DNA of 64,000 bases from Octopus vulgaris (GCA_951406725.2 OX597815.1:207948001-208012000); one strand, 5' to 3'. Counted from the first letter of the stretch, positions 92 through 47,566 are shown. Notes: generated by a model not told the origin, from the letters alone. Made by a program: numbers and translations.

Positions 92-2293
92 GTTTGTATG
101 TATGTCATTATTCAGTTTATTTCAAGATTTCTTGCCAATAGAGAAAGAACCGGTTTCTAACCTAGATCCAAGGCTCCTTCATTGGAATTTCAACATCAAC
201 AACAGGGTATTTTTGTTTGTATGTATGTATGTATGTTTGTGCAGATTTGTCACTGCATCATGTGATGGTTGTAAATAAGCATGTCTGTCTATGGGGGAAT
301 TGTCCCTTGCTCAGAAAAAGGTGAGGGTTGACAAGAAGGACATCTGGTCATAGAAAATCTGCCGCAATGAATTCCATCTGACTTGTGCGAGCATGGAAAA
401 ATCGACAATAAAATGATGACAATATGATGATAATGATGATGGAGGTGGTGGTGGAGATGACGACAACGATGACGACAACGATGATGATGATGATGGCACT
501 GAGAATTGCTATTAAGAATTATTGTTATGAACATTTGATGATGTATAGAAGAATAATAAAATGATAGCAGTTAGTCCCAGTGATATCTAAAAATATCATG
601 ACAACTAACAACATGTTATAATTTCAATTGAGCTTAGCTCCAGTGATATCTGAAGATATCACCCAAATGTAATAGTGATAGGATATTAAAATTTGTAATT
701 GAAAATATATAATTAAATCAATTTTGTCCATCAAAAGCTGTAATTAAATCAATGCAATACCAATGATTTGTGGTAGATATGTCAACTATTTATAATTATG
801 TAATATACAGAGGTGTTTCTTTTAAGCAACTTGTATATTTTAGACTCTCTCTCTTTTTCGAAATCATCCGGTTCTGTTGATATATGTTATTTTGGTTTAG
901 CAAATTATATTTACATGACATTTTAGATTCTTTTGGTATTTCTTAAGAGAACTACAAGCAATCCACTTGATCAAGAACAAACAACTTAACATTTGGTTAT
1001 TGACCTTGAGATGGCATTTATCTGCTGCTGGACAGTAAGAAAACTTGGAGAAATCGAATGGTTCAAGTGAACTCAGAAGAATAGTTTGAGAACGGAAAAT
1101 ACTCAGAGTTTGTAATAAATTTTCTGATGCATAAGAAAGCTCCATTATTGTATCTTAACCCTTTAGCATTTAAACCAACTATATCAGGCCAAAATATTCT
1201 GCCTGTTTTATGTAGGAGCCAGCTACCAAATTCACTCACCAGACTTGGGCCGGTCACAGGTTATTATAGAAGACACTTGCCCAAAGTGCCACACAGTGGG
1301 ATTGAACCCAGAACTATGTGGTTGGGAAGCAAGCTTCTTGCCACTCAGCCACATTAGCACCTCTATAGGAATGTTACTTTTAACAAGAAAAGCATGAAAG
1401 ACCAAGGATAATTCCGAAGGCTATCTACTGTTTATCACACGTGGATATGCATATTGACAGAGAAACGTAGAGAGAACTTGGAGGAAACAAGAAACAATTG
1501 GATACAGTTGGGTTCAAAGTGAGTTTTGCGGTTACTGAAGAGGTTAGTTGTGGTGGGAATAAGATGGAAGGTAGCAGATACATCACAACAAAAGATTATA
1601 GAAACCAAGATGTTAAGTTATCTAATCATTGTTTAAGAAATGTTTAATGTGGAATTATTAAACAGGGAATTGCTGTAATCCCAGGTATTATTAAGAAAAG
1701 AGCATCTGAAATGATTCAAGTGAAAATGAATTAGATATAGGTGTGTGTATAAGTGTGGGCTGCACAAGAAATATGAATAAAGAGAGTAAACGGTGAATGA
1801 CAATCATCAAACACATAACGATAATGAAAGCAGACTTGAAGGAAGAAAGTGACTAAAAACATAAAAATGACTTGGAGACATAATAGATTTCTCAATTTGC
1901 TAATTGTAATTGTGAAGGAAATAGTATAACTAGATTATCATCATTAACGGATGATAATGTTTCTGGTAGAACATCATCAAGAAAAGTATTGGATGAGTAA
2001 CAAAAGAATCTATAATGCATTTATTCATCATCATCATTATCATTAACATCATCATTATCATTGTTTTAATGTCCACTTTTCCATGCTTGCATGGGTTAGT
2101 TGGAGTTTATTCATGCAAATTAGATGCCCTTTTTCCCGTGAACCTTTGCCTGTTTCAAAGCAAGATTATATTTCCTCATCACCAGACATGTTTTTGCAGT
2201 GTATTGGGAATGAATGATACTGATTGTATGACCAATCATATGCAACTATCACACAATGTCAAAACAATGAGACACAAACATGCACACACACTC

Positions 2294-2328
<35 letters not shown>

Positions 2329-2345
2329 AATACATACATACGTGG

Positions 2346-2399
<54 letters not shown>

Positions 2400-3617
2400 C
2401 ATACATACATACATACATATATATATATATGTGGAACCACAATGGACCAGTGGTTAGAGCAGCAGACTTGCGGTCGTAGGATCGCGGTTTCATTTACCAG
2501 ACCAGGCGTTGTGAGTGTTTACTGAGCGAAGACACCTGAAAGCTCCACGAGGTTCACTCTTTCTTCTGTTGGCCTGCTTGCTCAGCCAGTGGGCAAGTGT
2601 CTTATACTATAGCCTCGGGCTGACCAAAGCCTTGTGAGTGGATTTGGTAGATGCAAACTGAAAGAAGCCCGTTGTATATATGTATATATATTTGTGTGTT
2701 TGTGTGTCTGTGTTTATTCCCTCAACATCGCTTGACAACTGATGTTGGTGTGTTTACATCCTCATAACTTAGTGGTTCGGCAAAAGAGACCGATAGAATA
2801 AGTACTAGACTTACAAAGAAGAAGTCCTGGGGTCAATTTCTCGACTAAAGGTGGTGCTCCAGCATGGCCGCAGTCAAATGACTGAAACAAGTAAAAGAGT
2901 AAAAGAGTATGTAACCTAATCTTCCCTTTCCTCTTCAAATGGTAGAGCATGACTTGAGGGAGATATGGCAGCTATTTTTAGCAGACTGAGTGAAGCTACA
3001 CAAATTTCATGCATTAGTGGGGTCTCTGCTTTGGTTCAATCATCTTTTCTTCAGTGTGTAGTCTTTGATACCATTACAAAACAATCTTGGACTTGAATAT
3101 CACAAATAGCATCTGTGAACTAATGACCAGATTTCAATTGTTACATTTGTTCATAAGCTTCAAAGAAAGCTCCAGATATGAAAGAGTAAGTCTACATCAG
3201 AAGACTAAACTATCAGTTTGATTTATGTAGTTGGGTTTTGATTCTATTTCTATATTATACACCATATTGGTATGCAGAGATAGATAAGCAAGAAGTAAAT
3301 AAGCAGGAACTTAATTTTTCAAGATAATCACTTGTGATTCTTGCACAACGCGTGTTAAAATATGTTTGCTGTAGATTATCAAGGAAGCAAAATTTTGGAT
3401 ACAATAGATGCACACAAGAGTAGCTAATGCTAATGAGCAATCATAACACGGAGACCATAATCTACTTGAAAAGATTCCTAGAAATTGCATGAATATATAT
3501 ATGTATGTGTGTGCATAAGGTGATTAAAATTTTAATCACCTTATTTTGAAATTGTATGGATAATACCATACTAAATTCTGGTGCCTTTCCTTAAGTGCCA
3601 TATTCATCTGAATCTAA

Positions 3618-3660
<43 letters not shown>

Positions 3661-3712
3661 CACGCACACACAATCATACACACCCATGTACATATATATA
3701 TATATATATATA

Positions 3713-4093
3713 TCTCTCTATATAAACGGCAGTTTGTCTGTGCGTGTTTCTGTGTGTCTGTTTGGTTGTACCCTCACCCTGACCACTGCTTTCAACCGAT
3801 TCTGATGAAACTTGACACACACATAGCCCAATGGCATAATTCAAAACTAACGCAGCGAAAATTTTGAAAAGTTCCCCCAGTTCTGAAAAAAATCGATAAA
3901 TTCGACATGGGGTCGAGAATCAGAAACACAAACCACAGACCGTCTAGGGGACGCAACTCCACCTTTTTTAACTCTCAAAAAAAATTACCATCATTTTTTT
4001 CCCATTTTTTTGCTATTTTTGGCTATAACTCTCTAAAAATGCTTTATAGTTATTTCCCTTACAAACCTGAGCAACGCCGGGCGATACTGCTAG
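3713..4093 (+). mobile_element. Non-autonomous Helitron
   Basis: 5' TC...TATATAAA, 3' hairpin cctgagcaacgccggg and terminal CTAG|T. Confidence 0.8.
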
Positions 4094-4134
<41 letters not shown>

Positions 4135-4164
4135 GTTTATATATATATATATTCATGTATGTAT

Positions 4165-4307
4165 CGCAACTCCACCTTTTTTAACTCTCAAAAAAAATTA
4201 CCATCATTTTTTTTCCATTTTTTTGCTATTTTTGGGCTATAACTCTCTAAAAATGCTTTATAGTTATTTCCCTTACAAACCTGAGCAACGCCGGGCGATA
4301 CTGCTAG
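4165..4307 (+). mobile_element. Tandem duplicate of the Helitron 3' end
   Basis: Near-identical to 3952-4093 including CTAG. Confidence 0.8.
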
Positions 4308-4341
4308 TATATATATATATATGTATGTATGTATGTATCTA

Positions 4342-4414
<73 letters not shown>

Positions 4415-5036
4415 CAAAATATATTCATATAAATTACATATGTATACTATACACAGATATATATATATGTGTGTGTGAAAGTGTGAGTTGTATATATGCA
4501 TGTGCGTGTGTATGTGTATGTATGTGTAGCATATATACATATGTGTGAGTGTGTTATAGCATTCATTTTTCCATGAAGCATGGAATTTGTTAAAGTCAAT
4601 TTTCTACAGCTTGATGCCCTTCCTGTTGCCAACCCTCAACTGAGGATGATACTAATAGTAATGATCTTGAATGAAATGATGATTAATAAGTGTAATATTG
4701 GTTTCAAATTTTGGCAAAGGCCAGAAGGTTTGGAGGAGGGACTAAGGCAATTACATTGACCTTAGTGTTCAACTGGTACTTATGCTGCTAAACAATTTTC
4801 TCAGTATACTAACAATTCTGTCAGCTCTCTATCTTAAGTAAGTGCAATATTAAATTATAAGATTACTTTCCGGTCATAAGGAAAAAAAGTTCTATCTGGT
4901 AAGTCAAATATAACAGAATCCAAGGGTATTAGTGATGGTCTGTGTCAGCAAGACTTGTATTATTTAGGAAAAACAACTTAAATAGTACAAGTGTCCATTG
5001 CTTATACTTTTTCCAATAGATTTGTATTGAATTTTA

Positions 5037-5212
5037 GGTGCAAGAGCGGCTGTGTGGTAAGTAGCTTGCTTACCAACCACATGGTTCTGGGTTCAGTCCC
5101 ACTGTATGGCACCTTGGGCAATTGTCTTCTACTATAGCCTCGGGCCGACCAAAGCCTTGTGAGTGGATTTGGTAGACAGAAACTGAAAGAAGCCTGCCGT
5201 ATATATGTATAA

Positions 5213-5243
<31 letters not shown>

Positions 5244-5443
5244 GTTGTTTGTGTGTCTGTGTTTGTCTCCCCAACATTGCTTGACAACCAATGCTAGTGT
5301 GTTTACGAACTTAGCAGTTTGGCAAAAGAGACCAATAGAATAAGTACTAGGCTTACAAAGAATAAGTCCTGGGGTCGATTTGCTCGACTAAAGGTGGTGC
5401 TCCAGCATGGCTGCAGTCAAATGACTGAAACAAGTAAAAGAGT
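5037..5443 (+). mobile_element. SINE family A (tRNA head, CORE-like CCTTGGGCAAG, internal (TA)n(TG)n, (AAAAGAGT)n tail)
   Basis: A-box TGGCTGTGTGG, B-box GGTTCAGTCCC. More than 20 full or partial copies in the window. Confidence 0.9.
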
Positions 5444-6578
5444 AACTATTTATGGAAACTGAATTTCCCTTTATAGGTGAACGTGTGACAGGTATAACTC
5501 TCTCATTATCAATAAAAAATTCAGTCATACTTCATAAGATTTTGTAAGATGCTATTATTCCAAAACTCTGTAAGTAATGAAGTAGTAGACATCAGAGAAT
5601 TTCTGATAAATTCCATCACAGCTTGTAATTGAATTTAACATAATATCTCTCTAATAGTTGTAGAATTTGATAGAACTGACAGAGTTCTAAAGATATTCAA
5701 CAGATTCAATAATTCAAAACCTATGATTATTAAGGTTACTACCAGCCTGGAGATAATTTAAAATCAATGAAATCCAAAGAAATTTTTAAATTTCTGTTAA
5801 CTATTTCTTCCATGGTACACCAACGTTTTTTCTTAATGAAAATATATATCTGTTGTTAAATATGAATTAGATGCTACAGGGAATTTCTGTTGCTGTGCTC
5901 ACTACATGAATGAAATTGGATAAAATTCTCTGTTACAAGAATGGTGAATTTGATTAGTATGGCAATTGAAGAAGGCGTGTAATTAGTAATCATTAATTTT
6001 CTGTGTTAATCTAATTACTTTTGTTTGTATTTTTGTTTTTTTCTGTTGCAAAATAATTCTTTATTTATTTCAAATAGAATCAGATATTGTGAAAACAGCA
6101 AATATTTTTTTGCAATACAAAACTACTATTTTATTCAAAATATACTGTGAGTTATAGACAATAAACCATTACAGAAAATATAGCAAAATCTTATAAATCC
6201 ATTTTTTATTCAAAGAATAAAAATAAATACTAACAGGGAATAATAAGCATTATATATACTTCCTTTCAAAATTTCCCTTGTGTAGTATCCTAGTGTAATG
6301 TCAGTTGACAGTTATTTGCTATAACAATGTTAGAAATAAAAAAACATTTTTCTTTGAAAATAAACATTAATAATGCTTGACTATTGTTAATTTATACAAT
6401 ATCAGACAAACTGTCAATAAAGTTCAAGAAGTTTTGCCAATCAATAAATTCTGTCATCCATACACAATTTAATGTTGGAATCATTTAATTGTAACATTTC
6501 CGTGACATAATAACAAAACAAAACAACACAGTTCCCAAACATAAACCTAACTAAAGCAGCAGATAACTAACCACACGA

Positions 6579-6674
6579 TCAGTCATTCAGAACCTTGATA
6601 ACTTTTTGCGTATGGATAACTATAACTTCCGATAAAGTTGGACGGAGTTGTTTTCTGTTCTTTAATTCAACATA
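6579..6674 (+). promoter_or_regulatory. Candidate TSS (TCAGTC initiator) and non-coding first exon of a nested antisense gene
   Basis: TCAGTC at 6579-6584, about 94 nt of higher-complexity sequence, then a consensus donor gtaagt at 6675. Sits in a roughly 2 kb SINE-free block. Confidence 0.4.
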
Positions 6675-7201
6675 GTAAGTAAAATCTTTATATGATTTGA
6701 TTATTTGATTTTAACAACATGAAAAGACCTTTAACAAGAACCGAATCATAAACTGAAGTACAGTTTTGTTTGTGTATTTAACATTTAAAAAGTGGTTAAG
6801 ACAAGTCAGAAGGAAATAAATAACTGTTGAGACTATTGATTCAGAATATGATATTAGTTTGGTCTATTAATTTCTGCTTTAGATTTAAAATACCGAGTAG
6901 GAGGTTGTGAAGTTTATGCTTTCTCAAAAATGCATTAAAGACATAGGAAATATATCCTTCCTTGAGAAAGATTGAATCTCACAAATCTTCAAACCTTCTT
7001 TATTATAAATTCATTTTCATCTCTAGGTATTTCTAATTTCTTTTCCTCTTGTAGTTTTCTTCCAAGTTTACCATATTTTCCAGCATAAATTCTAAGACCA
7101 ACATTTACAGTAAAAACAAAAGAAAAAAAAGTTGGTTGGCTTCTACACCAAGACGACTCTAGAGGACCAAAATTTCCATGTAAAACACAGGAGGAATTGG
7201 A

Positions 7202-7276
7202 ATGATAGTGATGATGTTTCAGTGTTTACTCATGTTTACACTATATACTACATCGACTTGTTTGCCAGAAAATATG
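7202..7276 (+). CDS. Candidate first coding segment (signal-peptide-like MIVMMFQCLLMFTLYTTSTCLPENM) in putative exon 7055-7276
   Basis: Branch-point-like ctaat plus ttcttttcctcttgtag acceptor ending at 7054. In-frame TAA upstream of ATG 7202. 25 codons end in ATG|gtaaat (phase 0). Downstream exons not identified. Confidence 0.4.
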
Positions 7277-7733
7277 GTAAATCTTTATTTAGTCTTTGGA
7301 TTTGATTAGAAAATGTTTATCAATAGATATAGGTCTAATATTCTCTTTTAAGTTAACCTTATTAGAAGCATACACTATTTTAATTTAAATTAATTTAAAA
7401 AATAAAGAAGAATTTACTAATGCAAATTTATCATTACTAAGCTGGTCTCTGGGAAATAAATTAACATGAAAATTTTGATGGAAATTTTTTTATTTAATTC
7501 AGTTTTAAGCACAAAGTTTGTTTGAGAAAACCACACGCAGACTCAAGTGAATTGGCATCAAAAGGTGGGCAGTTTTGTTGTTGTTTATGAACTTTTTCTC
7601 AAATTATTAAATCTAAATATCATTGCAAGTGCTTTGTGTATATATATATGATATATATCAAACATTCGCATTCTAAAAGTACAAAGAACTTTCTCATTAA
7701 TTTTTCATTTATGCACGAACACGTGAGTGTATG

Positions 7734-7767
<34 letters not shown>

Positions 7768-8090
7768 TGTATGCATATATGCACGTATGCATGTACGTAT
7801 GTATGTACGTATGTGTGCATAGGGAGAGTTGTCACATCATTAGCACACTGGAGAAGATAATTAGTGGCATTTCGTCTGTCTTAATATTTTAAGTTCAAAT
7901 TCCACCAAGGCCAAATATACCTTTAATCCTTTCGGGGTCAATAAAATAAGTTCTAGTCGAGCACTGAAGTTGATGTAATCAAGATCTCTCTCACAAAATT
8001 TCAGGCCTTGTGCCTAAAGTAGAACCACTGTATACAATAATTTCATTATTATATATCCTTTCTACTTCTCTCCTTGTTTTTTTCTGTGTA

Positions 8091-8128
8091 TCTTTCTGTC
8101 GAAGAGCGTAGGCTCGAAACGTAAAAGA
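8091..8128 (+). ncRNA. Minimal hammerhead-like motif (A6U core change) in a pLTR-like element about 8055-8220
   Basis: tcttt-CTGTCGA-a-GAGC-gtag-GCTC-GAAA-CG-TA-aaaga. All three stems present. Confidence 0.55.
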
Positions 8129-9086
8129 CTTTTTCTATTCCTGAGCGCTATACTAATACATTTGTTTGTTTGTACACCACCTGCCTTCATCTTTTGTTTA
8201 TTTTTGTAAACTTTCTCATTATATATATATATACATAAAAGAGTAGAGTATATACACACACACACAGATATACATATATATATATTCGAGTGTGGTTGCT
8301 GCCAGTGCTGCCTGACTGATCCCGTGCTGGTGGCATGTAAAAAGCACCCTTTGAGCATGGTCATTGCCAGTGCTGCCTGACTTCTTTCAGCTTTTATCAA
8401 CCAAATCCACTCACAAGGCTTTGGTCAACCTGAGGCTAGAGTAGAAGACACTTGTCCAAGGTGACATGCAGTGGGACTGAACCTGGAACCATGAGGTTGA
8501 GAAAGAAGCTTCTTACCACATAGCCACACCTAAACCTACATATATTAATGTGTGTGTTTGTGTGTGTGTGATAACTCTTGAAAGTTATATATTTGTCTTG
8601 TCAAAGTTAGCAAATTTACAGAAATATTAAGTGCAATGATTTCAGAAATAGTATTAAATTTAATAGAATAACTGTACGAGAATAAGTTTATTCTCCCTTT
8701 AGCTCACATCTTGTTTCACCATAAAGAAATCAGTCAGTCATAAAATGAACAGAAGAAGACTATTCGAACAGAAATTATAGTTGCTATGAGCATACATTGT
8801 GACAATTCATTAATATGAGAAAGTATCACTGCATTAGGCCTGATATTCATTCACTGTTAGAACCAAGTGAATGAACCACAATAAAAGGTGGTAAGGGAAT
8901 TAATGAGTGCTAAATATTCAGTTAATGAGAATGGGCTCTCTTGTTAGATATGTGCATGAGTGTATATATATACATATATATTTATATATATGTATGTAGA
9001 TGTCTGTTGATGCATGATATATATATATATATATATATCTATTTATATAAAACTATATCTATCTATATGTCTATCTATCTAACTAA

Positions 9087-13645: not shown

Positions 13646-13814
13646 TATATTAAGGAAAAGGAGCAGTCAGAATTTTGGATAATTCTTTATTAGTGCTTTC
13701 ATCCATTCATGAGGATTTTTCAAAAAATAATCCTCATGAAATGTCCTCATGAATGGATGAAAATGCTAATAAAGAATTATCCAAAATTCTGACTGCCTCC
13801 TTTTTCTTAATATA
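13646..13814. mobile_element. Palindromic Penelope-like fragment (about 70-bp arms)
   Basis: Inverted repeat. Minus strand reads TTGAAAA-ATCC..GGAT-GAAA-GCAC-TA-ataaa. Confidence 0.55.
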
Positions 13815-14411
13815 CAATATCTGTACATCACTTCAAACACTACCCACACACACACCTGTAGTATATGTCTGACCATGGGGGAAATTATTACCTTGCATGG
13901 AAACGGGTAAGTGTTGGTGACAGGAAGAGAATCCATCCATAGAAAATTTGCCCCAAGAAACACCATCAGAGGAAAGCATAGAAATGATGATATAATGATA
14001 TATATATATAATAACTGAACAAACCAACATCAATCATATTTTGATTGAAAGAGCTTGGCTCTTACTTTTCCTGTTCCCTTTTGTTCTGCTAAGTTACAAG
14101 TATGTCAAGAAACCAATACCAGTTGTTGAGCGATGGTGGGAGACGAACACAGACACAAACACACACACGCACAGTGAACTGGCAGAAACGTTAGCAAGCC
14201 GAGTGAAATGCTTAGCGGTATTTCGTCTGCTGCTATGTTCTGAGTTCAAATCATGCCGAGGTCGACTTTGCCTTTCATCCTTTCGGGGTCGATTAAATAA
14301 GTACCAGCTACACACTGAGGTCGATATAATCGACTTAATTCCTTTTGTCTGTCCTTGTTTGTCTCCTCTATGATTAGCCCCTTGTGGGCAATAAAGAAAT
14401 AACATACACAC

Positions 14412-19170: not shown

Positions 19171-19172
<2 letters not shown>

Positions 19173-19578
19173 TCTTTTACTCTTTTACTTGTTTCAGTCA
19201 TTTGACTGCGGCCATGCTGGAGCACCGCCTTTAGTCGAGCAAATCGACCCCGGGACTTATTCTTTGTAAGCCCAGTACTTATTCTATCGGTTTCTTTTGC
19301 CAAACCGCTAAGTGACGGGGACATAAACACACCAGCATCGGTTGTCAAGCAATGATGGGGGGACAAACACAGACACACAAATATACACACACATACATAT
19401 ATATATACATATATCCGACAGGCTTCTTTCAGTTTCCGTCTACCAAATCCACTCACAAGGCATTGGTCAGCCCGAGGCTATAGCAGAAGACACTTGCCCA
19501 AGACGTCACGCAGTGGGACTGAACCCGGAACCATGTGTTTGGTAAGCAAGCTACTTACCACACAGCCACTCCTGCGCC
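19171..19578 (-). mobile_element. SINE family A (young)
   Basis: Full-length, CpG-rich copy. Confidence 0.9.
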
Positions 19579-21143
19579 TATATATATATACATATGAAAG
19601 CATTTTATGAATAAATTTAAGTGGAATGTGTAATTAAAACAAAATACATTGAGGTGGTATATAGATGAAGATGTGAGTGTGTATTTTCTGCTTGTTGTTT
19701 GGCTGTCCATGAGACGGAATAACATTCACTATTTAGAATTTAAAATTAATCATATTTCCATTGAATTTTAAGTATGTAATTTCTTCTCTTATTCCCTTGT
19801 GTAGTTACAACTAAACCTATATTGTTAATGTATCTGCTTCTGAAATCTTTCTTCGTTCCTTCAAGCAGCTTATTGATATTGATTTTATAGAAATGCTAAT
19901 TAGAAATAAATAGATAATTTTGAATAAAACAAATGTAACCATTAACATCTATCAAAATAAGCCACCCGAGGAGCCTCTTTGTGGTTACTTGACACAATAG
20001 AAATAGCAGTCAAGTTACTTCAGAGAACAAACTTGTATGCTAAAATGGAAGAATGCATTGGATGATGTAGTCAAGGCTGTCTTAGCAGCCTTATAAGGCC
20101 CAGGGTAAACCAATGCACTGGGCCCTATAGTGTATATCTGTTGACTGCAAGCCACAGGTACATAGATCAGAATTGAGCTCCTGGAGCCATGAGGCCTGCT
20201 GGTAACCGCCCAGGGTGTCCATGCCTGAAATGTAATATTTATTGGGCCTCTGTTGGTTTCAACAATGTGTGTTTAGTTGTTTGATCATCTGAATTACCTG
20301 TTCATTAGTTTGCAAGTGGCTGAGTATTCCACAGACATGTATAGTCTTTATGTAATTCTTAAGTAATATCAGTGGGAAACAGCGTGACAGGACTGGACAG
20401 CTGAATTATAAAAAATTCTATCCGACAAACTTCTGAACAGTTTCTCTCTACCCAGTTTCTCTCACAAAGCTTGAGTTGATCTGTATTTCTAATAGGGGGG
20501 TGAAAAAAACGGCATACCCCCAGTATGGTGTGCAGTGGAATCAGACCACATGATTCTTGACAGTACACCTGGTGAAATGCTTAGCAGTATTTCGTCTGCC
20601 TTTACATTCTGAGTTCAAATTCCGCCGAGGTCGACTTTGCCTTTCATCCTTTCAGGGTCGATTAAATAAGTACCAGTTACGCACTGGGGTCGATATAATC
20701 GACTTAATCTGTTTGTCTGTCCTTGTTTGTCCTCTCTGCATTTAGCCCCTTGTGGGTAGTAAAGAAATAGGTATACTAGATGAACTAAAAAAGGTAGGTT
20801 AATTACAACAAGAATGACTTTGATCAAAGGTGTGGCTCTTCATCTTGTTTGAAATTACCAGGCCATCAACCTAGAAAGGAGCCTAGGATGACTGACCTGA
20901 TGAGGTCAGAGACCTTGGCTCTGTCACAACTTCCCATAGATATGTTGAATAATGGATCCCCTTCCTTTTTTTTTTTACCTGTAGGAATCATCAGATACTT
21001 TTACCTGTAGGCTGATTCTGATAGGAAACCACTAATTCTATTAAATTTTACCCAAGGCCTTAGACTTTCAGAAACTTCATTATGAAAGGTTAAAAATCTT
21101 GTGTATATGTGTGTGTATTTAGATATATATATATATATATATA

Positions 21144-22578: not shown

Positions 22579-22629
<51 letters not shown>

Positions 22630-22811
22630 CAAAAACTGTCCGATGAACGGCAACGAGAAACTCAGAGTAACAGGTTTTGTTGAATTTTCTGCTGCTTTAA
22701 ATAAAGTATATATATATATATATATATATATATAGCAAAAACTGTCCGATGAACGGCAACGAGAAACTCAGAGTAACAGGTTTTGTTGAATTTTCTGCTG
22801 CTTTAAATAAA

Positions 22812-22882
<71 letters not shown>

Positions 22883-28497: not shown

Positions 28498-29063
28498 TTG
28501 GGTTGTCTGGAAAGTTCATGCCAATTTTTAAAGGTAAGAAAAAGGTCAATAAATACTTGCTATTGCATTTTTCATCAATCAAATATGAACCTTTTTATTG
28601 CACAATGCATCTCCATCTTTCCTTTAACTTGAAAATACCCTCTTCCCAGAATTGAGGTGGTTTCATGGCAAAGAATTCATCAAGGTATCTTTTTAGGTCA
28701 TCAAAGGAATTGAAATTTTTACCATTAAGACTATTCTGCACAGACCTGAATAAGTGGAAATCCGAAGGAGCAATATCTGGTGAATATGGAGGGTTGGGTA
28801 ACACATCCTTGCCAAGCTGCAGCAATTTTTGTCTGGTTCCTAAAGCATCAAGTGCCGAAAATGAACTTTCTGACCTTCCACTTTAAAGGGTTACAGAATT
28901 AACACAGGTTATAGGAACATAAACCTTCTTCCATGAAAAGATAGCTTAAACTGTGCTCTAAATGGAGGTGTAGTCAAATCCTATTTTATGGACTCAACCA
29001 TGTTCTAAAATAAGTCGAAAGGTAAGCTACTATAAATAGGCACAAACTTTCCGGACAACCCAA
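28498..29063 (-). mobile_element. Internally deleted mariner transposon
   Basis: TA-flanked TIRs ttgggttgtctggaaagtt / aactttccggacaacccaa. Minus-strand ORF with PPYSPDIAPSDFHLF and GIFKLKERW, the mariner C-terminal catalytic motif. Confidence 0.9.
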
Positions 29064-31340: not shown

Positions 31341-32989
31341 TGTACATATGTGTGTATGTATGTGTATGCATGTGTGTGTGTGTGTGCACATGGAAACCTA
31401 TTTTGCGTGTATATGTCCACACACATAAAATAGGTTTCCATGCAACTTCTTTCCACTGAATTCACTCACAAGTTGACCCAGGGTGCAGTAGAAGATGCTT
31501 GGCCAAAGTTCTCTGCTATGAGACAGAAATAATAACAACATGATCCTGAAGCAGTTTTCATAACCATATAATCATGCCTGCACCTTTCTGCATAAAACAA
31601 AAACAACAAAAACCTGTAGAATGGTTAAAGACGGCGTATGTAAAGTATATTATGCTGATGAAATCCAATAAGACTAAAACTTGTCCCTAGTTGTCCTTTT
31701 GCCCACAAAAATCAGATTCTTTGCTTAACATGTGAAGTGATTTTGTGAGATTAACTATTAGTTCTACTAAAATTATATCTCTTTTGGAGTTACTAATAGT
31801 TATTACTAGTTTGTTTTTCTTCTGCCGTCTAAGAAAAAGATTTCAATTAATTAAGAATATGTATATATATCATTCTGTACAACTTTTAAATTATCCATCT
31901 AAATGTACATCATTGGCCCACTTGAGTTATTGTTCTTAGCTTAGCTTATTTTTTTAAACTTCCGAATATAGTATCATAGCTTGTGTATCTGTCATGTATG
32001 TAAAGTTCTTAGAACCAGAAATGACATAGAAAGCTGTTACTGCTTTTCAATTTCAAGCAGGTTTTTTTGTTTATCTCTGCATTGTTTCTGAGGATGTATT
32101 GTCTTGTTTTATCCTACTTTTAATGATTATTTTATTAATTCAATAAAGTGTACTCACTTAATTGTTATAAAATTGTTGTTGCTATCAGCTTAATGGCTCT
32201 GTGTTTTTTTTTATGAGACTAAATGTGCTGTGACATGTTTTTTAGTAGTATTTAAGTAATTATTATTTGTTTAATTTCATTAATTTCTGTTTTCTTTACA
32301 CTGTATTAAAGCCTATCGAATAATCTTAACTGAGAAATTACTTTAGAGAAAGAAACAATTGTATCTAGAAAGGCTGTTATGCTTCACAAAGACAGCTATT
32401 AGAGTCATTAGTGTAAACTAACATGGTGTGTGAATTGATTTCTGCCTCTGTTTCAACCACAAATGTAATAGCAATTTCTTAAGGATATACAGTTGTTGTT
32501 GTTGTTGTCGTTATTGTTACTGTTGCTGTTTAGACTCAGGTCAATGCACTTCAAGCATGATTGTAGCATTTCATCTATGACCATCCTATATGTTGTTTGT
32601 TCCGTCTCGAGCCATGCCTGGTTCATAAGGGCCAGTTTCCCGGTTTCCTTGGCGTATAGGTTCCCCCACCTGGATGGGACGCCACTCCATCGCAGGTGAG
32701 CTGCAAGATGCAGGAGGAAAGAGTGAGAGAAAGTTGTGGCGAAAGGGTCAGCAGAAGTTCACCATTACCTTCTGCCGGAGCCGCGTGGAGCTTCGATGTT
32801 TCGCTCATAAACACACACATCGCCCGGTCTGAGATTCGAACCTGCAATCCCTCAATTGCATGTCCGCTGCTCTAACCACTAGGCCATGCACCTCCACACC
32901 GTCCTATATGATTAAAAGTTATTTAACCATAACCATTCCATCCGGGTTTTTTTACAATTGGGATTGCAGTAACTGTTATGTTCTCATTA

Positions 32990-33950: not shown

Positions 33951-34214
33951 ATAAGGATCTTCTTCTTTCATCAGATGAAGAAATGCTTTAACAAATTCCA
34001 GCCACCAACCCACATCTATTTCCACCCTATGGTAATATTTCCCATTGGTTGGACATATTTTCATGGAAGATCAGATACAAAGGATACTGTTTGTAACCGC
34101 TGCATTATTTCAAGACAAGGAGGAACAAACAGACCCACACCAACTTATACATATGCATACACACACATACATGCACACACACACACATACTTGCACACAT
34201 ATATAAATATTTAA

Positions 34215-34295
34215 GGCTCTGATGAAGCTCTAGGATGTTATTCAGGCACTTGACTCTCAGTCCACTGCATCTAATTGCAGAAACAGCTGTAAGCT
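34215..34295 (+). ncRNA. Type I hammerhead ribozyme motif, canonical core, in a Penelope-pLTR-like fragment
   Basis: ggct-CTGATGA-(long stem II with gatg/catc)-GAAA-CAGCTG-TA-agct. Palindromic stem III ACAGCTGT, GUA cleavage triplet, 4-bp stem I. Confidence 0.6.
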
Positions 34296-34488
34296 AATGA
34301 AATGCATAAGATAATCATTTATTCCTTTGTCACCTCATTTTCTTATATAAATATATCATCATCACCATCGTTTAACCTCTGCTTTCCATGCTAGCATGGG
34401 TTGGACGATTTGACTGAGGTCTGGCGAACCAGACTCCACTCTGATCTGGCAGAGTTTCAACAGCTGGATGCCCTTCCTAAATGTAAAT

Positions 34489-38177: not shown

Positions 38178-38554
38178 TTACTCTTTACTCTTTTACTTGT
38201 TGCAGTCATTTGATTGTGGCCATGCTGGAATACAAAAAATTGACCCCAGGACTTATTCTATCGTTCTCTTTTGCTGAACTGCTAAGTGACGGAGACGTAA
38301 ACACACCAGCATCGGTTGTCAAGCGATGTTAGGGGAACAAACACACATACAAACATATACACACACATACATATATATATATAATTTAAAATTGAATAGA
38401 AGGTCTTGAAACCACCAGATGAATGTCCTTAGAAGTGACAAGAAACAATTGTAGTGGATAACTTAATTTATTTGATTTAATTTATATAAAATTTTTTATG
38501 TATTGGATTAAGTCTTTCTTTGTTTGATTTGCATAATAGTGGTTTTGTCTCTAA

Positions 38555-38638
<84 letters not shown>

Positions 38639-39731: not shown

Positions 39732-39775
<44 letters not shown>

Positions 39776-40409: not shown

Positions 40410-40444
<35 letters not shown>

Positions 40445-40647: not shown

Positions 40648-40686
<39 letters not shown>

Positions 40687-40687
40687 C

Positions 40688-40719
<32 letters not shown>

Positions 40720-41451
40720 GTAAATATAATATGCCTATATAAATATGCATCAAATACACACATGCACACACATATATACACACACACAAATATATATATA
40801 CATGATTAATTAGATACTCCACTATCAATATAATATATATATGATGTACACCCAGTTGATTCTTTTAATTTCTAATTTCTACGATCTTATCCTATACTTA
40901 ACATTATTTTATTTCATTTACCCAATATTTAATGCAATACATCATTTTATTATCTTAAAAGGATGCATATGTATGTATATGCATGCATGTATGTATGTAT
41001 GTATGTATGTATGTATGTATGTATGTATGTATGTATGTATGTATGTATGTATGTATGTATGTATGTGTGTACGTGTATGTATGTATGTATGTATGTATGT
41101 GTGTTTGTTTGTTTGTTTGTATGTATATATGTATGTAAATCAGTTTTATCACTGAGTGAAACTTTGAACTGTCAACTATTAATTTAATACTCAACGTATT
41201 TGGTTGTTAATTGATGACTTTTAAAAACCTCTTGATCTGAAATATAAATGTAATGCATTATCCTAACATCAAGCTCATCCACATTTATCTATTTTGATGT
41301 CTTCATACCCACATGCTTTATAAATGAATTTACTAAATCAAATCCATTCTCAGATGTAACATTCTTCAGCTAACTATTTATAAAGTACTTAATTTAGTAT
41401 GAAATTTTTACATTGGATGGTTAAATATATATTGTGTAAATGTCCTTAATA

Positions 41452-41869
41452 GGCACAGGAGTGGCTGTGTGGTAAGTAGCTTGCTAAACAACCACATGGT
41501 TCCGGGTTCAATCTCACTGCGTGGCATCTTGGGCAAGTGTCTTCTGCTATAGCCTCGGGCCGACCAATGCCTTGTGAGTGGATTTGGTAGACGGAAACTG
41601 AAAGAAGCCTGTCGTATATATGTATATATATATGTATGTGTGTGTGTGTTTGTGTGTCTGTGTTTGTCTCCCTAGCATTGCTTGACAACCGATGCAGGTG
41701 TGTTTACGTCCCCGTCACCTAGCGGTTCGGCAAAAGAGACCGATAGAATAAGTACTGGGCTTACAAAGAATAAGTCCCGGGGTCGATTTGCTCGACTAAA
41801 GGCGGTGCTCCAGCATGGCCACAGTCATATGACTGAAACAAGTAAAAGAGTAAAAGAGAGTAAAAGAGT
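41452..41869 (+). mobile_element. SINE family A (young)
   Basis: Full-length copy. Confidence 0.9.
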
Positions 41870-42384
41870 AATACAATAATGTAATATAACCTGAAAATAT
41901 TCTTTCACCCTAATTTTGAATTTATTTTTACTCAATCTTATCTTAAACATCCAACATGCAATTTTATTTTATAATAAAAAACAATAATGAAAATAATTCT
42001 TTCTGCTAAAGGCTCAAGGCCTGAAATTTTGGTGGGAGAGGACTAATTGATTACAATTACCCCAATATTTCATTGGTACTTAATTTATCGACTCAGAAAG
42101 GATGAAAGGCAAAGTTGACCAAGGTGGAATTTGAACTCAAAACTTAAAGATGGATACAATGCTGCTTCGTGTTTGATCCAGTGTGCTAATGATTCTACCA
42201 GCTCACTGCTTTAATAACACAGATAATGATAATGATGATGATGGTGGTGGTAGTGATAAGGACGATCAAAACATCAACAACAAGAATAATAATTCCTTTT
42301 TTTATTGGTCACAAGGCCTGTACACAAAAGTAAAGGACAATACAATACAAAGACAGTGGGGACTTAGATATAGTACATGTAAAG

Positions 42385-43130: not shown

Positions 43131-43466
43131 TGATTATCTCTGTGAAGAGGGAGAGTTACTCTATCAACATGTTTAATATGAATGACCTCCTTGGTCAGTT
43201 AATAAAAAAGTTACACTCGTCTTCACGGTACTTTCTGTATAACCTATTTTTCTACAATAGCTCAGGACTGACCAAATACTTGTAAGTAGATCTGGTGCAC
43301 GGAAACTGAAAGAAGCCCATTGTGTGTGTGTGTGTATGTGTCTGTGTGTGCACATGCATGCATGGATGTGTGTTTCTGCATGTGTGTGTGTTTTTGCATG
43401 TATATATTATGCATGTACACATCTATCTATGTATCTCACGCTCTCTCTACATATATATATATATAT

Positions 43467-43818
43467 GGAGATGTACCTGCATAGCAAGTGATTTGATCTG
43501 AGATCGTGTGCTGGAACGAAAACAATTGCAGTGTGGAAGGTGTTTGTAAGCCATTTAAGAAACACACAAAAGCCGTTCGATTCACTTCAACATTTAAGTT
43601 TAATTTGTCGAAATATTTTCGTCGCTGTAAGACCGCGACCTGTTCACTGCCAAAAATCAGTGAGCACGGAGATGCAGCATGGATTTTTGTCAGTGAACAG
43701 GTCGCGGTCTTAAAGCGACGAAAACATTTTGACAAATTAAACTTAAATGTTGAAGTGAATCGAACGGCTTTTGTGTGTTTCTTAAATGGCTTACAAACAC
43801 CTTCCACGCTGCAATTGT
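43467..43818. mobile_element. Long palindromic Penelope-like element (137-bp arms, 23-nt loop) with hammerhead-like motif in both arms
   Basis: Arms 43522-43658 and 43682-43818 with about 5 mismatches. tttgtca-GTGAACA-g-GTCGC..GCGAC-GAAA-acat-TT-tgacaaa. Flanked by (TA)n. Confidence 0.7.
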
Positions 43819-44407
43819 ATATATATATATGTATATATATATGTGTGTGTGTGTGTGTGCAGTGCACGTGCATGTGTGTGATGTGTGTTTGAAGTGTGAT
43901 GTGTGTAAGCACATGTGTGCATATACAGTAATGGGTATACATGTCTGTATGTGTCCACATGGTGGAAGCGTAGTGTGGACAGTGTTTATACAGAACAAGT
44001 GAATGCAAATTAGAAGCAAGAAGCAATATAGAAAAGGCTGTGCAGGAAGGAAGATGTCAAGTATACTAGCCAGAAGAAGCCAAAAGTAGAAGGTTTGCTT
44101 CTGTTCAGTACTGTGTGCATGAGTAATGAAAAGCATTCATAAAGCAAGATAGCAAGATAGCATGTGTGTGTGTGTGTGTGTGTATTTATGAACTAAGATG
44201 TCATCAAAGAAACAAGCAGCTATCTGATATCACACTTATAAACAGGACCACAAACAGAGGGAGGACAAAGTTATGAAAGTGCTATAATAATAATAATAAT
44301 AATTGTGTACAGTGCTCAGGTGCACTACAACTCATCTAAAGTGTATATATAATCAGGTGTAGTTTCGGCGGATTTCGGAAAGCATGAGGGCCTTAAAGGA
44401 TGTATAT

Positions 44408-44623
44408 ATAATAATGTTGAATAAGGGCAATAAGTAAGTGAGAAATTACACCAAATGCTATAATAATGTTGTATAAGGGCCATAAGTAAGTGAGAAATTA
44501 CACCAAATGCTATAATAATGTTGTATAAGGGCCATAAGTAAGTGAGAAATTACACCAAATGCTATGATAATATTACACCAAATGCTATAATAATGTTGTA
44601 TAAGTGAGAAATTACACCAAATG
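44408..44623. repeat. 52-bp minisatellite, 3 full and 2 truncated units
   Basis: ataatgttgtataagggccataagtaagtgagaaattacaccaaatgctata starting at 44411, 44463 and 44515. Confidence 0.9.
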
Positions 44624-44961
44624 AACCCAGCAGAGAAGACAGGTATTGATGTTAACTAAATCAAGCAAGGCTATTAAAGTAATGAAGTATGAAGAAATTG
44701 CAGACTCATTAGAAATATCTGCTAGGTGCACACTAGCTATTTACTTAATTAATCTATCTGGTAAAGAAGGCAGTTACGTTAGTTACTTTAATGCTGAAGG
44801 TGCAGGTAAGGTGTAGAGTAGGTGGAAGCAGTTCAGTATTCTCTGATAAGTATACAGGTGCATATTCTATTGAAGTGTCGGAAGTATTCCAGAAATGAAA
44901 TCTTAGACTTTTCATGCTGGTGTATGTCTTAGCTATAGTGGGACCTTGCGACAGTGAGCTG

Positions 44962-45264
44962 CTGTGTGTGTGTGTGTCTGTGTGTCTGTCTGTATGTATG
45001 TATGTATGTATGTATGTATGTATGTATGTGTGTATATTTGTATGTATGTATGTATGTGTGTATGTGTGTATGTGTATGTATGTATGTGTGTGTATGTATG
45101 TATGTATGTATGTATGTATGTATGTGTGTATGTGTGTGTATGTATGTATGTGTGTGTGTGTATGTATGTATGTATGTATGTATGTATGTATGTATGTATG
45201 TATGTATGTATGTATGTATGTATGTATGTATGTATGTATGTGTGTGTGAGTGTATGTATGTATG
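44962..45264. repeat. (TATG)n/(TG)n microsatellite
   Basis: Direct reading. Confidence 0.95.
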
Positions 45265-45412
45265 TCTTTTATCTTTCACCTGTTTCAGTCATTAGACTGA
45301 GGCCATGCTGGGGCACTGCCTCGAACAATTTGTTTTAGTCAAATGTATCGGTCCCAGTACGTTTTTTTAGATATTCACACACCAACACCAGTTGTTAAGT
45401 GGTGGTGAGGGA

Positions 45413-45478
<66 letters not shown>

Positions 45479-45643
45479 CACACACACACAAAACGGGTTA
45501 CTTTAGATTCTGTCTATCAAATTCACTCACAAAGATTTGGTTGCCTCGAGGTTATAGTAGAGGGCACTTGTTCAAGGCTCCATGCAGTGGGACTGAACCC
45601 AGAACCATATGGTTAGGAAGCAAGCTTCTTACCATACAGCCAC

Positions 45644-45684
<41 letters not shown>

Positions 45685-45775
45685 GTTAATCCAAACAAGA
45701 AAGCACAAAAAAAACACAACAACGCGAGGACGTGGAACAAATATAGTATTATTGGACGCTCAGGAAAGAAGGAGG

Positions 45776-45810
45776 GTTTAATGTTTCGAGCGGAGCTCTT
45801 CGTCGGAAAC
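45776..45810 (-). ncRNA. Minimal hammerhead-like motif (U4C) in a pLTR-like element about 45683-45882
   Basis: Minus strand gttt-CCGACGA-a-GAGC-tcc-GCTC-GAAA-CA-TT-aaac. Followed by TTCCTGAGCG as in the 8091 element. Confidence 0.5.
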
Positions 45811-46251
45811 ATAGGAGAAGGAAAGATCCAGAGAAGGGAAGACAGAGGAAAAAAAATCGCCACTGGTATACATGAGGTCACATATCATTTATATCATAAG
45901 AATCTAGAAACTTTGAGAGACATAAAATATACTGATCTTAATTATGGAACTTGAAGTAGAAAAATCTATAAATTATAGCATGAAAATATTGAATGAAAAA
46001 ATCTTGGATGGGAAAAGTTGAAGGCTACCATGTGACTTGAACCCACATTCTCTGCAACCTTGTATACATATACACACATAAACAAACACGTATATAAAAA
46101 GAGAGATTTACACAGACAAAGAATCAGATTGATAAATAGATAGGAAAAACAATAAATGCAGTCATAAAAATAATATAAATGAAACAAACAAAACTAAATG
46201 AAACAACAAAATAATAGATTAAAGGTTGAAGCAAAAATATTTTGCCACAGA

Positions 46252-46414
46252 GGCGCAGGAGTGGCTGTGTGGTAAGTAGCTTGTTTACTAACCACATGGT
46301 TCCGGGTTCAGTCCCACTGCGTGACACCTTGGGCAAGTGTCTTCTGCTATAGCCTCGGGCTGACCAAAGCCTTGTGAGTGGATTTGGTAGACGGAAACTG
46401 AAAGAAGCTCGTCG

Positions 46415-46453
<39 letters not shown>

Positions 46454-46661
46454 TTGTGTGTCTATGTTTGTCCCCCTAGCATTGCTTGACAACCGATGCT
46501 GATGTGTTTATGTCCCCGTTACTTAGCGGTTCGGCAAAAGACCGATAGAATCAGTACTGGGCTTACAAAGAATAAGTCCCAGGGTCGATTTGCTCGACTA
46601 AAGGCGGTGCTCCAGCATGGCCGCAGTCAACTGACTGAAACAAGTAAAAGAGTAAAAGAGT
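46252..46661 (+). mobile_element. SINE family A
   Basis: Full-length copy. Confidence 0.9.
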
Positions 46662-46670
46662 ATATATATA

Positions 46671-47070
46671 CTAGCAGCTAAACCCGGTTTATTTGGATGA
46701 TGTGGCTGTGATAGTTTTCGGTTAGGCATAATCTATAACAGCGTTTGTCAACCTTACCATTTCGGGTCCCTTGTTTCGATTGGAGCCTCCTGCTATATAA
46801 AAATTTCCTGACCCCACCCCGTCAGAAAACAGCTTCTGAGCAACTGGTTGTTTTAATGGCAGTAGAAAGAGGGAAATCCCATTAGAAAAAGTTTTAATCG
46901 ATTTCCTCGATAAGTATGGGGGTTAGGAAAAAAATACAAACTGCATTCCAATCTATGCACCTGTCTCCACAGGTATGCCATTTTTCACGCGATTCCACCC
47001 AGTCGTTTGGCTGTGAACCTCATGACAAGAAAGAATACAACGATCGCCCATGTCCAATTCATATTATAGA
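46671..47070 (-). mobile_element. Non-autonomous Helitron (different family)
   Basis: Minus strand starts TCTATAATA and ends ...aaccgggtttagctgCTAG|T. Confidence 0.6.
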
Positions 47071-47336
47071 TATATACATGTGTGTGTGTGTGTGTACCCA
47101 AAATATGTAGTATACATGCATACATACACTCAGACATGCACACACATATATGTGTGCACATGTACACACAACATGTATACTCTTTTACTCTTATACTTGT
47201 TTCAGTCATGTGACTGTGGCTATGCTAGAGCACCGTCTTTAGTCGAGCAAATCGATCCCAGGACTTATTCTTTGTAAGCCTAGTACTTATTCTATCAGTC
47301 TCTTTTGCTGAATCACTATATATATATATATATATA

Positions 47337-47566
47337 CTTTATTTAAAGCAGCAGAAAATTCAACAAAACCTGTTACTCTGAGTTTCATATTCCCGTTCGT
47401 TGGACAGTTTTTTCTAGCAAAAACTGTCTGACGAACGGGAACATGAGACTCAGAGTAACAGGTTTTGTTGAATTTTCTGCTGCTTTAAATAAAGCATATT
47501 ACTCTACCACTGGTATTTGAGCACTCTTTTTTCCACCTTGTTTCACATTTATGTGTTTACTCCGGT
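47337..47566. mobile_element. Palindromic (tail-to-tail) Penelope-like element with the same 79-bp hammerhead unit
   Basis: Inverted repeat 47337-47494 centred on CTAG 47414-47417. Plus arm has CTGACGA...GAGA-ctcagag-TA-acag. Flanked by (TA)n. Confidence 0.7.

What the first reader, a model, noticed from the sequence alone, without database searches (positions are those of the whole stretch)
143..47566. Diverse population of tiny hammerhead-ribozyme elements inserted in (TA)n tracts
Seen: at least eight distinct short element types (80-350 bp), mostly embedded in or next to (TA)n, carry one architecture: stem I - core (CTGANGA or a variant) - stem II - GAAA - short palindromic stem III - NUH - stem I'. 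Loci: 143-191(-), 8091, 13686-13730(-), 22628/22734, 34215, 38412, 43686, 45776(-), 47424, and a weaker one at 31655. Flanking stems differ in sequence but keep pairing. Established: minimal type I hammerheads with palindromic stem III mark Penelope-like element pLTRs, are thought to cleave as dimers, and relate to small circRNA retrozymes. Inference: this genome hosts a rich, probably unannotated set of non-autonomous Penelope/retrozyme-like elements. I found no RT or GIY-YIG ORF here.
Basis: partly seen in the sequence, partly recalled or inferred. Interest (0 to 1): 0.75.

Follow-up and report, generated by a model that had tools for sequence, protein, structure and literature searches.

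The report
Penelope retroelement ends with variant hammerheads
Most of these short repeats are the cut-off ends of a known class of jumping genes (Penelope-like elements) in an octopus-like genome, each carrying a predicted self-cutting RNA, and two very common families have permanently changed letters in that RNA's normally fixed catalytic core, though cutting is untested.

Summary
Partly confirmed. Seven dispersed families in the window carry minimal type I hammerhead architecture and end in or beside (TA)n. 22628/22734 and 47424 are one family, 31655 is a decayed canonical hammerhead, and 143-191 lacks the core and lies in the 3' UTR of a likely RLE-type LINE. Two families were traced upstream. 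43686 is the pLTR of a young element with a 1025-aa RT + GIY-YIG frame; 8091 lies about 1 kb behind a weakly matched GIY-YIG. They are 5'-truncated Penelope-like element ends, not stand-alone retrozymes; the other five families were not traced. In 780 kb of unselected genome, 28 motifs have a paired 3:8 core position against a mean of 2.0 in shuffles (about 10^5 genome-wide, extrapolated). New in detail: a G3:C8-swapped core fixed in 5,534 exact copies, whose sister lineage has C3-G8 plus four compensatory stem changes, and an A6U core in 14,944 copies with position 7 free. I found neither as a natural variant in the papers searched, but one key paper was unavailable. This scan noted both before on other DNA (G3:C8 in this genome, A6U in another). 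Cleavage, dimers and circles are untested.

The parts
43670..43817 (+). 5'-truncated pLTR end of a young Penelope-like element. Hammerhead 43686-43736 with swapped core G3-U-G-A-A-C8-A9 (43693-43699), extra G, 5-bp stem II, GAAA, 2-bp stem III, predicted cut after 43729, 7-bp stem I. Ends at the short 3' end point, followed by TA repeats.
43467..43669 (-). Inverted partner of the 43670 element (core 43641-43647), reaching towards the long 3' end and abutting (TA)n 43451-43466
8044..8219 (+). Truncated end of a PLE family with family-fixed A6U core (CUGUNGA, 8096-8102), 4-bp stem II, ACGU stem III, GUA triplet; followed by (TA)n 8220-8233
45679..45894 (-). End of an abundant related family with C(C/U)GACGA core (45800-45806) and GUU triplet in the family; followed by (TA)n 45647-45678. 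Not traced to an ORF.
22628..22706 (+). Short-end copy of the 22628/47424 family (core CCGAUGA 22640-22646; stem III ACUC-A-GAGU), flanked by (TA)n
22734..22812 (+). Identical tandem duplicate (106-nt period) of the 22628 copy
47412..47565 (+). Long-end ('tail'-bearing) copy of the same family, core 47428-47434, GAAA mutated in this copy; followed by (TA)n 47566-47583
47337..47415 (-). Inverted short-end partner abutting (TA)n 47317-47336
34207..34343 (+). Older family with canonical CUGAUGA core (34219-34225), long stem II and palindromic ACAGCUGU stem III. Not traced to an ORF.
38381..38557 (+). Family with canonical core (this copy U4A, 38416-38422) and palindromic ACAAUUGU stem III; followed by (TA)n 38558-38631; often in head-to-head pairs
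13657..13730 (-). Family with U3-A8 core (13717-13723), 4-bp stem II and A-GCGC-U-type stem III; a sister subfamily has C3-G8 with a compensatory stem II change
13737..13830 (+). Inverted partner of the 13657-13730 element
31651..31692 (+). Decayed canonical type I hammerhead (core 31655-31661; G12 lost, stems I and III broken); 3 distant relatives; not beside (TA)n
91..240 (-). 3' UTR end of a likely RLE-type LINE; hammerhead-like words at 143-191, but G5 is absent and no stem I adjoins the core; not counted as a hammerhead

Best explanation
Most of these loci are short, 5'-truncated insertions of the terminal repeat (pLTR) of several endonuclease-bearing Penelope-like retrotransposon families (shown for two families, likely for five more), each carrying a minimal type I hammerhead that is predicted to self-cleave slowly. 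Mechanism: a tandem pLTR-ORF-pLTR copy is transcribed. Its RT/GIY-YIG protein nicks (TA)n DNA and starts reverse transcription at one of two sites just inside the ORF start, which gives the two 3' ends ('tail'). Synthesis usually stops early, often with a strand switch that leaves an inverted partner. These steps are inferred from anatomy and from the Anolis PLE work. The hammerhead lies shortly upstream of these start sites, so nearly every fragment carries it, which explains the density of 'tiny elements'. The fold is under selection (shown by covariation), while core letters drift between lineages: C3-G8, U3-A8, G3-C8, U4C, A6U, A9C. Cleavage most likely needs a dimer through stem III or help from the element's protein, and is probably not needed for insertion (inferred).
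For: G3:C8 family: walking upstream reaches a GIY-YIG coding end. 19 of 20 loci picked by protein search alone carry the identical G3:C8 core about 1 kb downstream on the same strand. A 1025-aa open frame has RT YVDD, a CX3CXXC linker and GIY-YIG (25.4 bits, cut-off 22.6), with RT-annotated homologs. In L362 the pLTR runs in frame into the ORF start. 38 of 171 pairs of young copies are identical over 160 nt.

A6U family: it extends about 1 kb upstream to a GIY-YIG-like end (Pfam E 0.027, below cut-off).

Anatomy: inverted partners occur at three window loci. Two 3' ends lie about 67-77 nt apart in two families. 3' junctions run into (TA)3 in 38/53, 23/36, 12/12, 27/30, 37/44 and 13/16 cases.

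Selection on the fold: with positions 3 and 8 left free, 28 of 39 hits pair there, against 0-4 in 10 shuffles. The sister PLE (57% protein identity) has C3-G8 and four more double changes, in stems I (two), II and III. Position 7 takes all four letters in the A6U family.

Literature: PLE pLTR hammerheads, the extra nucleotide after A9, palindromic stem III and U3-A8 (PMC4209133); the tail, the protein-assisted ribozyme and partial rescue by C3G/G8C (PMC11167929).
Against: Five of seven families were not traced to an ORF, and chance neighbours produced false links. Pfam did not call the RT domain in the 1025-aa frame, and no solved structure matched it. Copy 5' ends do not pile up at the predicted cut: 0/8, 0/24, 2/17, 0/40, 0/16 and 0/1 within -2..+3. 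The minimum-energy fold gives stems I and II clearly only for the G3:C8 motif (z -2.7, -3.2); the others have z -1.7 to +0.6, and cofolding two copies did not give the stem III dimer. The G3:C8 family has a UUU triplet, the window subfamily has a non-palindromic loop, and the sister has A9C, all expected to slow cleavage (own knowledge). The five-row covariation count represents two lineages, not five events.
Confidence: 0.82

Rival explanations
1. Some untraced families (45776, 22628/47424, 34215, 38412, 13686) or 31655 are true non-autonomous retrozymes: short self-cleaving units that circularise and are mobilised in trans by PLE proteins.
For: Most copies are short. 22628/22734 is a perfect 106-nt tandem. 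31655 has the canonical type I shape typical of retrozymes (PMC7229834). A preprint derives animal retrozymes from PLE pLTRs (10.64898/2026.07.22.740005).
Against: The two families that were walked both led to endonuclease coding sequence, although only 27 exact copies of the far 5' motif exist against 14,944 of the core, so shortness alone is uninformative. 5' ends are variable and partners are inverted rather than tandem. The 106-nt tandem is separated by (TA)n and may be a local duplication.
Confidence: 0.15
2. The variant cores (G3:C8, A6U, A9C) are catalytically dead or negligible; selection keeps the three-way fold for another job, such as protein binding or positioning of reverse transcription. 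This is compatible with the PLE-end origin.
For: Hammerhead mutants did not affect insertion in vitro, and no reads ended at the cut site in Anolis (PMC11167929). There is no pile-up of 5' ends at the cut here. Natural A6C is slow in Mg2+ (PMC3088659; PMC7151607 abstract).
Against: The 3:8 pair forms in the active core, and it stays paired in 21 of 23 listed families, with one U-G and one unpaired. GAAA, U16.1, H17 and G5 are kept while N7 varies freely.
Confidence: 0.35
3. The motifs are chance matches in AT-rich repeat DNA.
For: Window-only scans are not beyond chance. This reading probably holds for 143-191.
Against: 28 against a mean of 2.0 paired-core hits in unselected DNA, with 1 in reversed sequence; compensatory changes; position inside pLTRs.
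Confidence: 0.02

Closest known systems
Minimal type I hammerheads in PLE pLTRs (Cervera and de la Pena 2014, PMC4209133; read parts 1-2 of 4, figures and supplements not seen)
   Same: pLTR location, mostly solo truncated copies, close opposite-strand pairs, extra nucleotide after A9, G10.1-C11.1, palindromic stem III, many unrelated families per genome, U3-A8 variant
   Different: The text reports 2,000-9,000 motifs per genome and only U3-A8 as core covariation. Here there are about 10^5 (extrapolated), with family-fixed G3:C8, A6U and A9C.
Poseidon element PAc of Anolis (Frangieh et al. 2024, PMC11167929; read parts 1-2 of 4)
   Same: Hammerhead next to the ORF start, two 3' end points giving a tail inside the ORF start, AT-rich targets
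   Different: There C3G/G8C is an engineered partial-rescue mutant; here it is the natural state of an apparently active lineage. The linker zinc finger marks a different clade.
Neptune and Nematis clades of EN+ PLEs (Craig et al. 2021, PMC8557442; passages and section 11)
   Same: C-terminal GIY-YIG with CX2-5CxxC linker and CCHH, inverted 5'-truncated copies, (TA)n bias
   Different: Clade not placed on a tree (no reference sequences at hand); 1-1.6 kb microsatellite-rich 3' UTR in the G3:C8 family
Metazoan non-LTR retrozymes (PMC7229834, passages; bioRxiv 10.64898/2026.07.22.740005, parts 1-2 of 5)
   Same: Type I hammerhead in short repeats; 31655 has the canonical shape
   Different: No head-to-tail arrays of 170-400 nt here; the traced families are ends of coding elements; circles not shown. 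The axolotl already has up to 120,000 motifs (section heading), so the number here is no record.
Natural hammerhead core variants (Perreault et al. 2011, PMC3088659, passages; Naghdi et al. 2020, PMC7151607, abstract)
   Same: U3-A8, U4C and position-6 variation (A6C) occur in nature
   Different: G3:C8 and A6U are not named as natural in the passages seen; those variants were rare single cases, not thousands of copies

Membership tests
EN+ Penelope-like element | RT and GIY-YIG in one ORF linked to the motif | tested here: met
   43686 family: 1025-aa frame with YVDD and GIY-YIG over cut-off; 19 of 20 loci linked. Pfam missed the RT domain.
EN+ Penelope-like element | Same link for the other window families | tested here: inconclusive
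   8091: GIY-YIG-like end about 1 kb upstream, E 0.027, RT not reached. 45776, 22628/47424, 34215, 38412 and 13686 not traced.
EN+ Penelope-like element | pLTR running into the ORF start (partial tandem) | tested here: met
   L362 for the G3:C8 family; L371 for the sister family
EN+ Penelope-like element | Inverted 5'-truncated partner and optional 3' tail | tested here: met
   Three window loci; two 3' ends in two families
Neptune/Nematis clades | CX2-5CxxC linker and CCHH in the endonuclease | tested here: met
   Read from translations; clade definitions
Neptune/Nematis clades | Placement in an RT phylogeny | not tested
   No named reference sequences in session
Type I hammerhead ribozyme | Three stems around the core, supported by covariation | tested here: met
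   for seven families
Type I hammerhead ribozyme | Consensus core C3 U4 G5 A6 N7 G8 A9, G12 A13 A14 A15, U16 H17: families 34215, 38412, and U4 copies of 45776 and 22628/47424 | tested here: met
Type I hammerhead ribozyme | Strict consensus core: families 43686 (G3:C8), 8091 (A6U), 13686 (U3-A8) | tested here: not met
   Family-fixed departures; the 3:8 pair is kept
Type I hammerhead ribozyme | Core and adjacent stem I at 143-191 | tested here: not met
Type I hammerhead ribozyme | Site-specific self-cleavage | not testable with these tools
   No assay; only contigs could be laid
Non-LTR retrozyme | Non-coding unit in head-to-tail repeats | tested here: not met
   Traced families are ends of coding elements; only one 106-nt (TA)n-spaced duplicate. 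Untraced families remain open.
Non-LTR retrozyme | Abundant circular RNA | not testable with these tools
   No raw RNA reads available

The most novel reading that the evidence does not exclude
Recently active Penelope-like lineages in this genome run on natural hammerheads with core letters thought to be invariant: a G3:C8 swap, A6U and A9C, each fixed in thousands of copies. These cleave in vivo with help from a dimer or the element's own protein. The genome would then be a natural mutational scan of the hammerhead core across more than 20 families, and standard descriptors would miss a large part of animal hammerheads.
Probability: 0.4. Interest if true: 0.62.

Novelty: new variant of a known kind. 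Interest (0 to 1): 0.42.

Why it matters
What hammerheads do in Penelope-like elements is still open: they cleave poorly alone and were dispensable for insertion in one in vitro system. Young, intact elements whose ribozymes differ by defined core swaps, next to a sister lineage with the canonical pair, give a direct test of whether catalysis or only the fold is selected. The C3G/G8C swap, a laboratory proof of the tertiary core pair, appears here as a natural, lineage-fixed state. In practice, many short repeats in this genome are PLE ends, and hammerhead searches that fix C3/G8/A6/A9 will undercount. The class of element and its ribozyme are otherwise already described.

Tried and rejected
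Rfam scan: no hammerhead in the 150 rows shown of 241. The repeat finder was swamped by microsatellites and a common SINE-like repeat. The genome search with 105-215 found no candidates; relatives came from sampled DNA and from a search with the upstream coding end. A Pfam family I wanted for PLE RT was not in the library; GIY-YIG was used instead.

Apparent links of 8091, 143, 34215 and 45776 copies to nearby PLE frames were not accepted: those of 8091 are separate insertions after (TA)n, and the others were single cases or lay beside another family's element. The upstream-extension script for five families was dominated by self-overlaps and shared repeats and traced none.

The idea that copies begin at the cut site, raised by a depth step in laid contigs, was rejected on genomic 5' ends; contig depth cannot show starts. 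Expression: no RNA holder listed; four contig sets held the element, which shows nothing on transcription, cleavage or circles. The 3'-junction count for 38412 (2 of 19) is set aside because my end pattern stopped short of the element end; one search shows those ends running into TA. Cofolding did not return the stem III dimer. No solved structure matched the 1025-aa protein; Pfam gave no family for the LINE end, so RLE-type rests on recalled motifs.

Print searches for natural G3:C8 or A6U, or for octopus hammerheads, found none. Lunse et al. 2017 and Przybilski and Hammann 2007 were not held and not seen; the former, and unseen figures and supplements of PMC4209133, may already list such variants.
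Full report
Setting. The window is C2:207,948,001-208,012,000 of a 2.80-Gb genome in 227 contigs. It is 35.6% G+C and rich in (TA)n and other microsatellites. The closest named relative of a protein from this genome is labelled Octopus vulgaris, so I treat it as an octopus genome (inference). No PLE coding sequence is in the window: tblastn with two PLE proteins from this genome gave no hit.

Observation in the window. All named loci exist. A descriptor allowing one core mismatch found 8096, 22640, 22746, 34219 and 38416 among 14 hits, but 7 hits at score >=7 is within the range of 12 shuffles (mean 2.5, max 7). A stricter descriptor passed only 43693. Rfam listed no hammerhead among the 150 of 241 rows shown. 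The case therefore rests on families, not on the window.

Families. Genome searches returned 40 scored candidates each for 43686, 45776, 47424, 34215, 38412 and 13686 and none for 143. Alignments show that 22628/22734 and 47424 are one family, and that the family majorities keep stem I, core, an extra nucleotide after A9, stem II, GAAA, a short and mostly palindromic stem III and UH. Whole-genome exact counts are 5,534, 14,944, 10,590 and 8,709 for motifs of 43686, 8091, 45776 and 22628/47424, with 0 in reversed controls.

Two loci do not fit. 31655 has three relatives at 78-89% that together outline a canonical hammerhead with 6-bp stem I, 4-bp stem II and UC at 16.1/17; three of four copies lack G12. 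143-191 lacks G5 in nearly all of eight copies and has no stem I adjacent to the core. Where copies extend upstream they meet a coding end with motifs I recall as the restriction-like endonuclease of R4/Dong-type LINEs (no Pfam match). I do not count it.

More than chance, and selected. I took 78 stretches of 10 kb at round positions (780 kb) and scanned with positions 3 and 8 left free. Of 39 hits at score >=9, 28 have a Watson-Crick 3:8 pair (C-G 19, U-A 7, G-C 2), against 0-4 (mean 2.0) in 10 shuffles and 1 in reversed DNA; non-pairing hits were 11 against a mean of 3.5. That extrapolates to roughly 90,000 strict motifs; copies cluster, so read it as order 10^5. Clustering 340 hits from all fetched loci (which include targeted and overlapping ones) gave 23 listed families. 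The majority or tied core pairs at 3:8 in 21, is U-G in one and unpaired in one. (TA)5 lies within 250 nt downstream of 21 of 28 motifs, upstream of 10, and downstream of 20.6% of random positions. 3' junctions run into TA repeats in 38/53, 23/36, 12/12, 27/30, 37/44 and 13/16 unique cases.

The 43686 family. Its core reads G3-U-G-A-A-C8-A9, inside a 7-8 bp stem I and a 5-bp stem II that are the minimum-energy fold (z -2.7 and -3.2). Of 115 parsed copies out of 148 hits, some overlapping, 106 have this core. Only 166 genomic matches have another letter at position 3, and none of the 100 listed is C3-G8. Walking upstream through a microsatellite-rich UTR reaches a GIY-YIG coding end. A protein search then gave many near-identical copies; 19 of the 20 loci cut out carry the identical G3:C8 core, with a palindromic stem III, about 1 kb downstream on the same strand. 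One copy has a 1025-aa open frame with the RT YVDD motif, a CX3CXXC linker and GIY-YIG over the Pfam cut-off. Pfam did not call the RT, but homologs are annotated as RT-domain proteins. In L362 the pLTR continues in frame into the ORF start, and the stretch between the two 3' end points is the start of the ORF. This is the arrangement described for the Anolis element, where the tail lies between two RT start sites (PMC11167929, parts 1-2 of 4).

The sister lineage. A PLE at 57% protein identity carries a homologous hammerhead with C3-G8 and C at position 9 (3,684 matches). Against it, five pairs change on both sides: two in stem I, one in stem II, one in stem III and the 3:8 pair; three outer stem I pairs break (two lineages, five rows). 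The swap is thus a compensatory change within one hammerhead lineage; its direction is inferred from the commonness of C3-G8.

The 8091 family. Its core is CUGUNGA: U at position 6 in 14,944 exact matches against 158 with A, and all four letters at position 7. A 5' motif present in 27 exact copies led, in the 20 fetched, to a shared pyrimidine-rich UTR and, in four, to the end of a GIY-YIG-like frame with a linker zinc finger (Pfam E 0.027, below cut-off). The RT was not reached. In the 13686 family, a U3-A8 and a C3-G8 subfamily differ also by a compensatory stem II pair.

How it most likely works. Shown: pLTR position, variable 5' truncation, inverted partners, two 3' ends, (TA)n junctions, intact young ORFs, covariation. 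Inferred: target-primed reverse transcription at (TA)n from sites just inside the ORF start, so that almost any fragment includes the nearby hammerhead; and slow cleavage assisted by dimers or the element's protein. Against a role of cleavage in making inserts: 5' ends do not gather at the cut (0/8, 0/24, 2/17, 0/40, 0/16 and 0/1), and ribozyme mutants inserted normally in vitro in the Anolis system. Cofolding did not give the stem III dimer, and folds of the other motifs are not better than shuffles.

Comparison with print. Minimal hammerheads in pLTRs, their occurrence as thousands of solo copies, close inverted pairs, the extra nucleotide and U3-A8 are described (PMC4209133, parts 1-2 of 4; review passages). 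The linker zinc finger, inverted copies and (TA)n bias are described for Neptune, Nematis and Hydra (PMC8557442, passages and section 11). PLEs, including recently active ones, are annotated in O. vulgaris; the parts read do not mention ribozymes (PMC13282606, parts 1-2 of 3). Natural U3-A8, U4C and A6C are known (PMC3088659 passages; PMC7151607 abstract). G3:C8 appears only as an engineered rescue. Searches found no natural G3:C8 or A6U and no octopus hammerhead study. Lunse et al. 2017, the main paper on PLE hammerhead variants, could not be read, and unseen figures and supplements may list them. Retrozymes as PLE derivatives are covered by PMC7229834 (passages) and a 2026 preprint (parts 1-2 of 5). 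Earlier notes of this scan report a G3-C8 PLE end in this genome and an A6U family in another genome. I had reached both readings before seeing them, and they are not independent support.

Verdict. A real and abundant feature of a known kind: truncated PLE ends with minimal hammerheads. The added value is the set of family-fixed core variants in young lineages, which is directly testable. Interest 0.42; new variant of a known kind.

Noticed in passing
L370:919-965 and L374:903-960 (G000 C17, C6): A young sister PLE family (frames up to 1312 aa, 56 scored matches) carries a homologous hammerhead with C3-G8 but C at position 9; 3,684 exact motif matches, nearly all C9 among the 100 listed.
   Followed up: partly
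L233:1-4954 (G000 C6): Intact Neptune-type PLE with a 781-aa RT + GIY-YIG frame, an overlapping upstream 479-aa frame and direct pLTRs; related loci carry a U3-A8 hammerhead 0.4-0.9 kb after the endonuclease.
   Followed up: partly
window 91-240 (-); L151, L380-L386: RLE-type LINE whose 3' UTR holds a GAAA-palindrome hairpin resembling half a hammerhead and ends in (CATA)n; could be a captured, decayed pLTR piece.
   Followed up: partly
window 31651-31692; L376-L378: Old, low-copy canonical type I hammerhead family; 3 of 4 copies lack G12.
   Followed up: partly
G000 C18:50376175-50378544 with P0001, and P0105: PLE coding sequence sits inside annotated host protein models, including one named as a dynein regulatory complex subunit isoform; probably annotation carry-over.
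   Followed up: no
window 19172-19581, 41449-41858 and about ten more: A roughly 400-nt SINE-like repeat with an internal microsatellite is the commonest interspersed repeat in the window.
   Followed up: no
window 28595-28882 (-): Open frame resembling the C-terminal part of a mariner transposase (recalled motif).
   Followed up: no
window 58676-59086 (+): Remnant resembling an RLE-type LINE endonuclease end (recalled motif).
   Followed up: no
window 44407-44571 and 3952-4338: 52-nt tandem repeat (3.2 copies, 97%) and 214-nt duplicate (97%).
   Followed up: no
L163, L166, L174, L364, L065 and others: At least 16 further hammerhead families outside the window, several with long stem II insertions or stem III of 5-6 bp.
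   Followed up: partly
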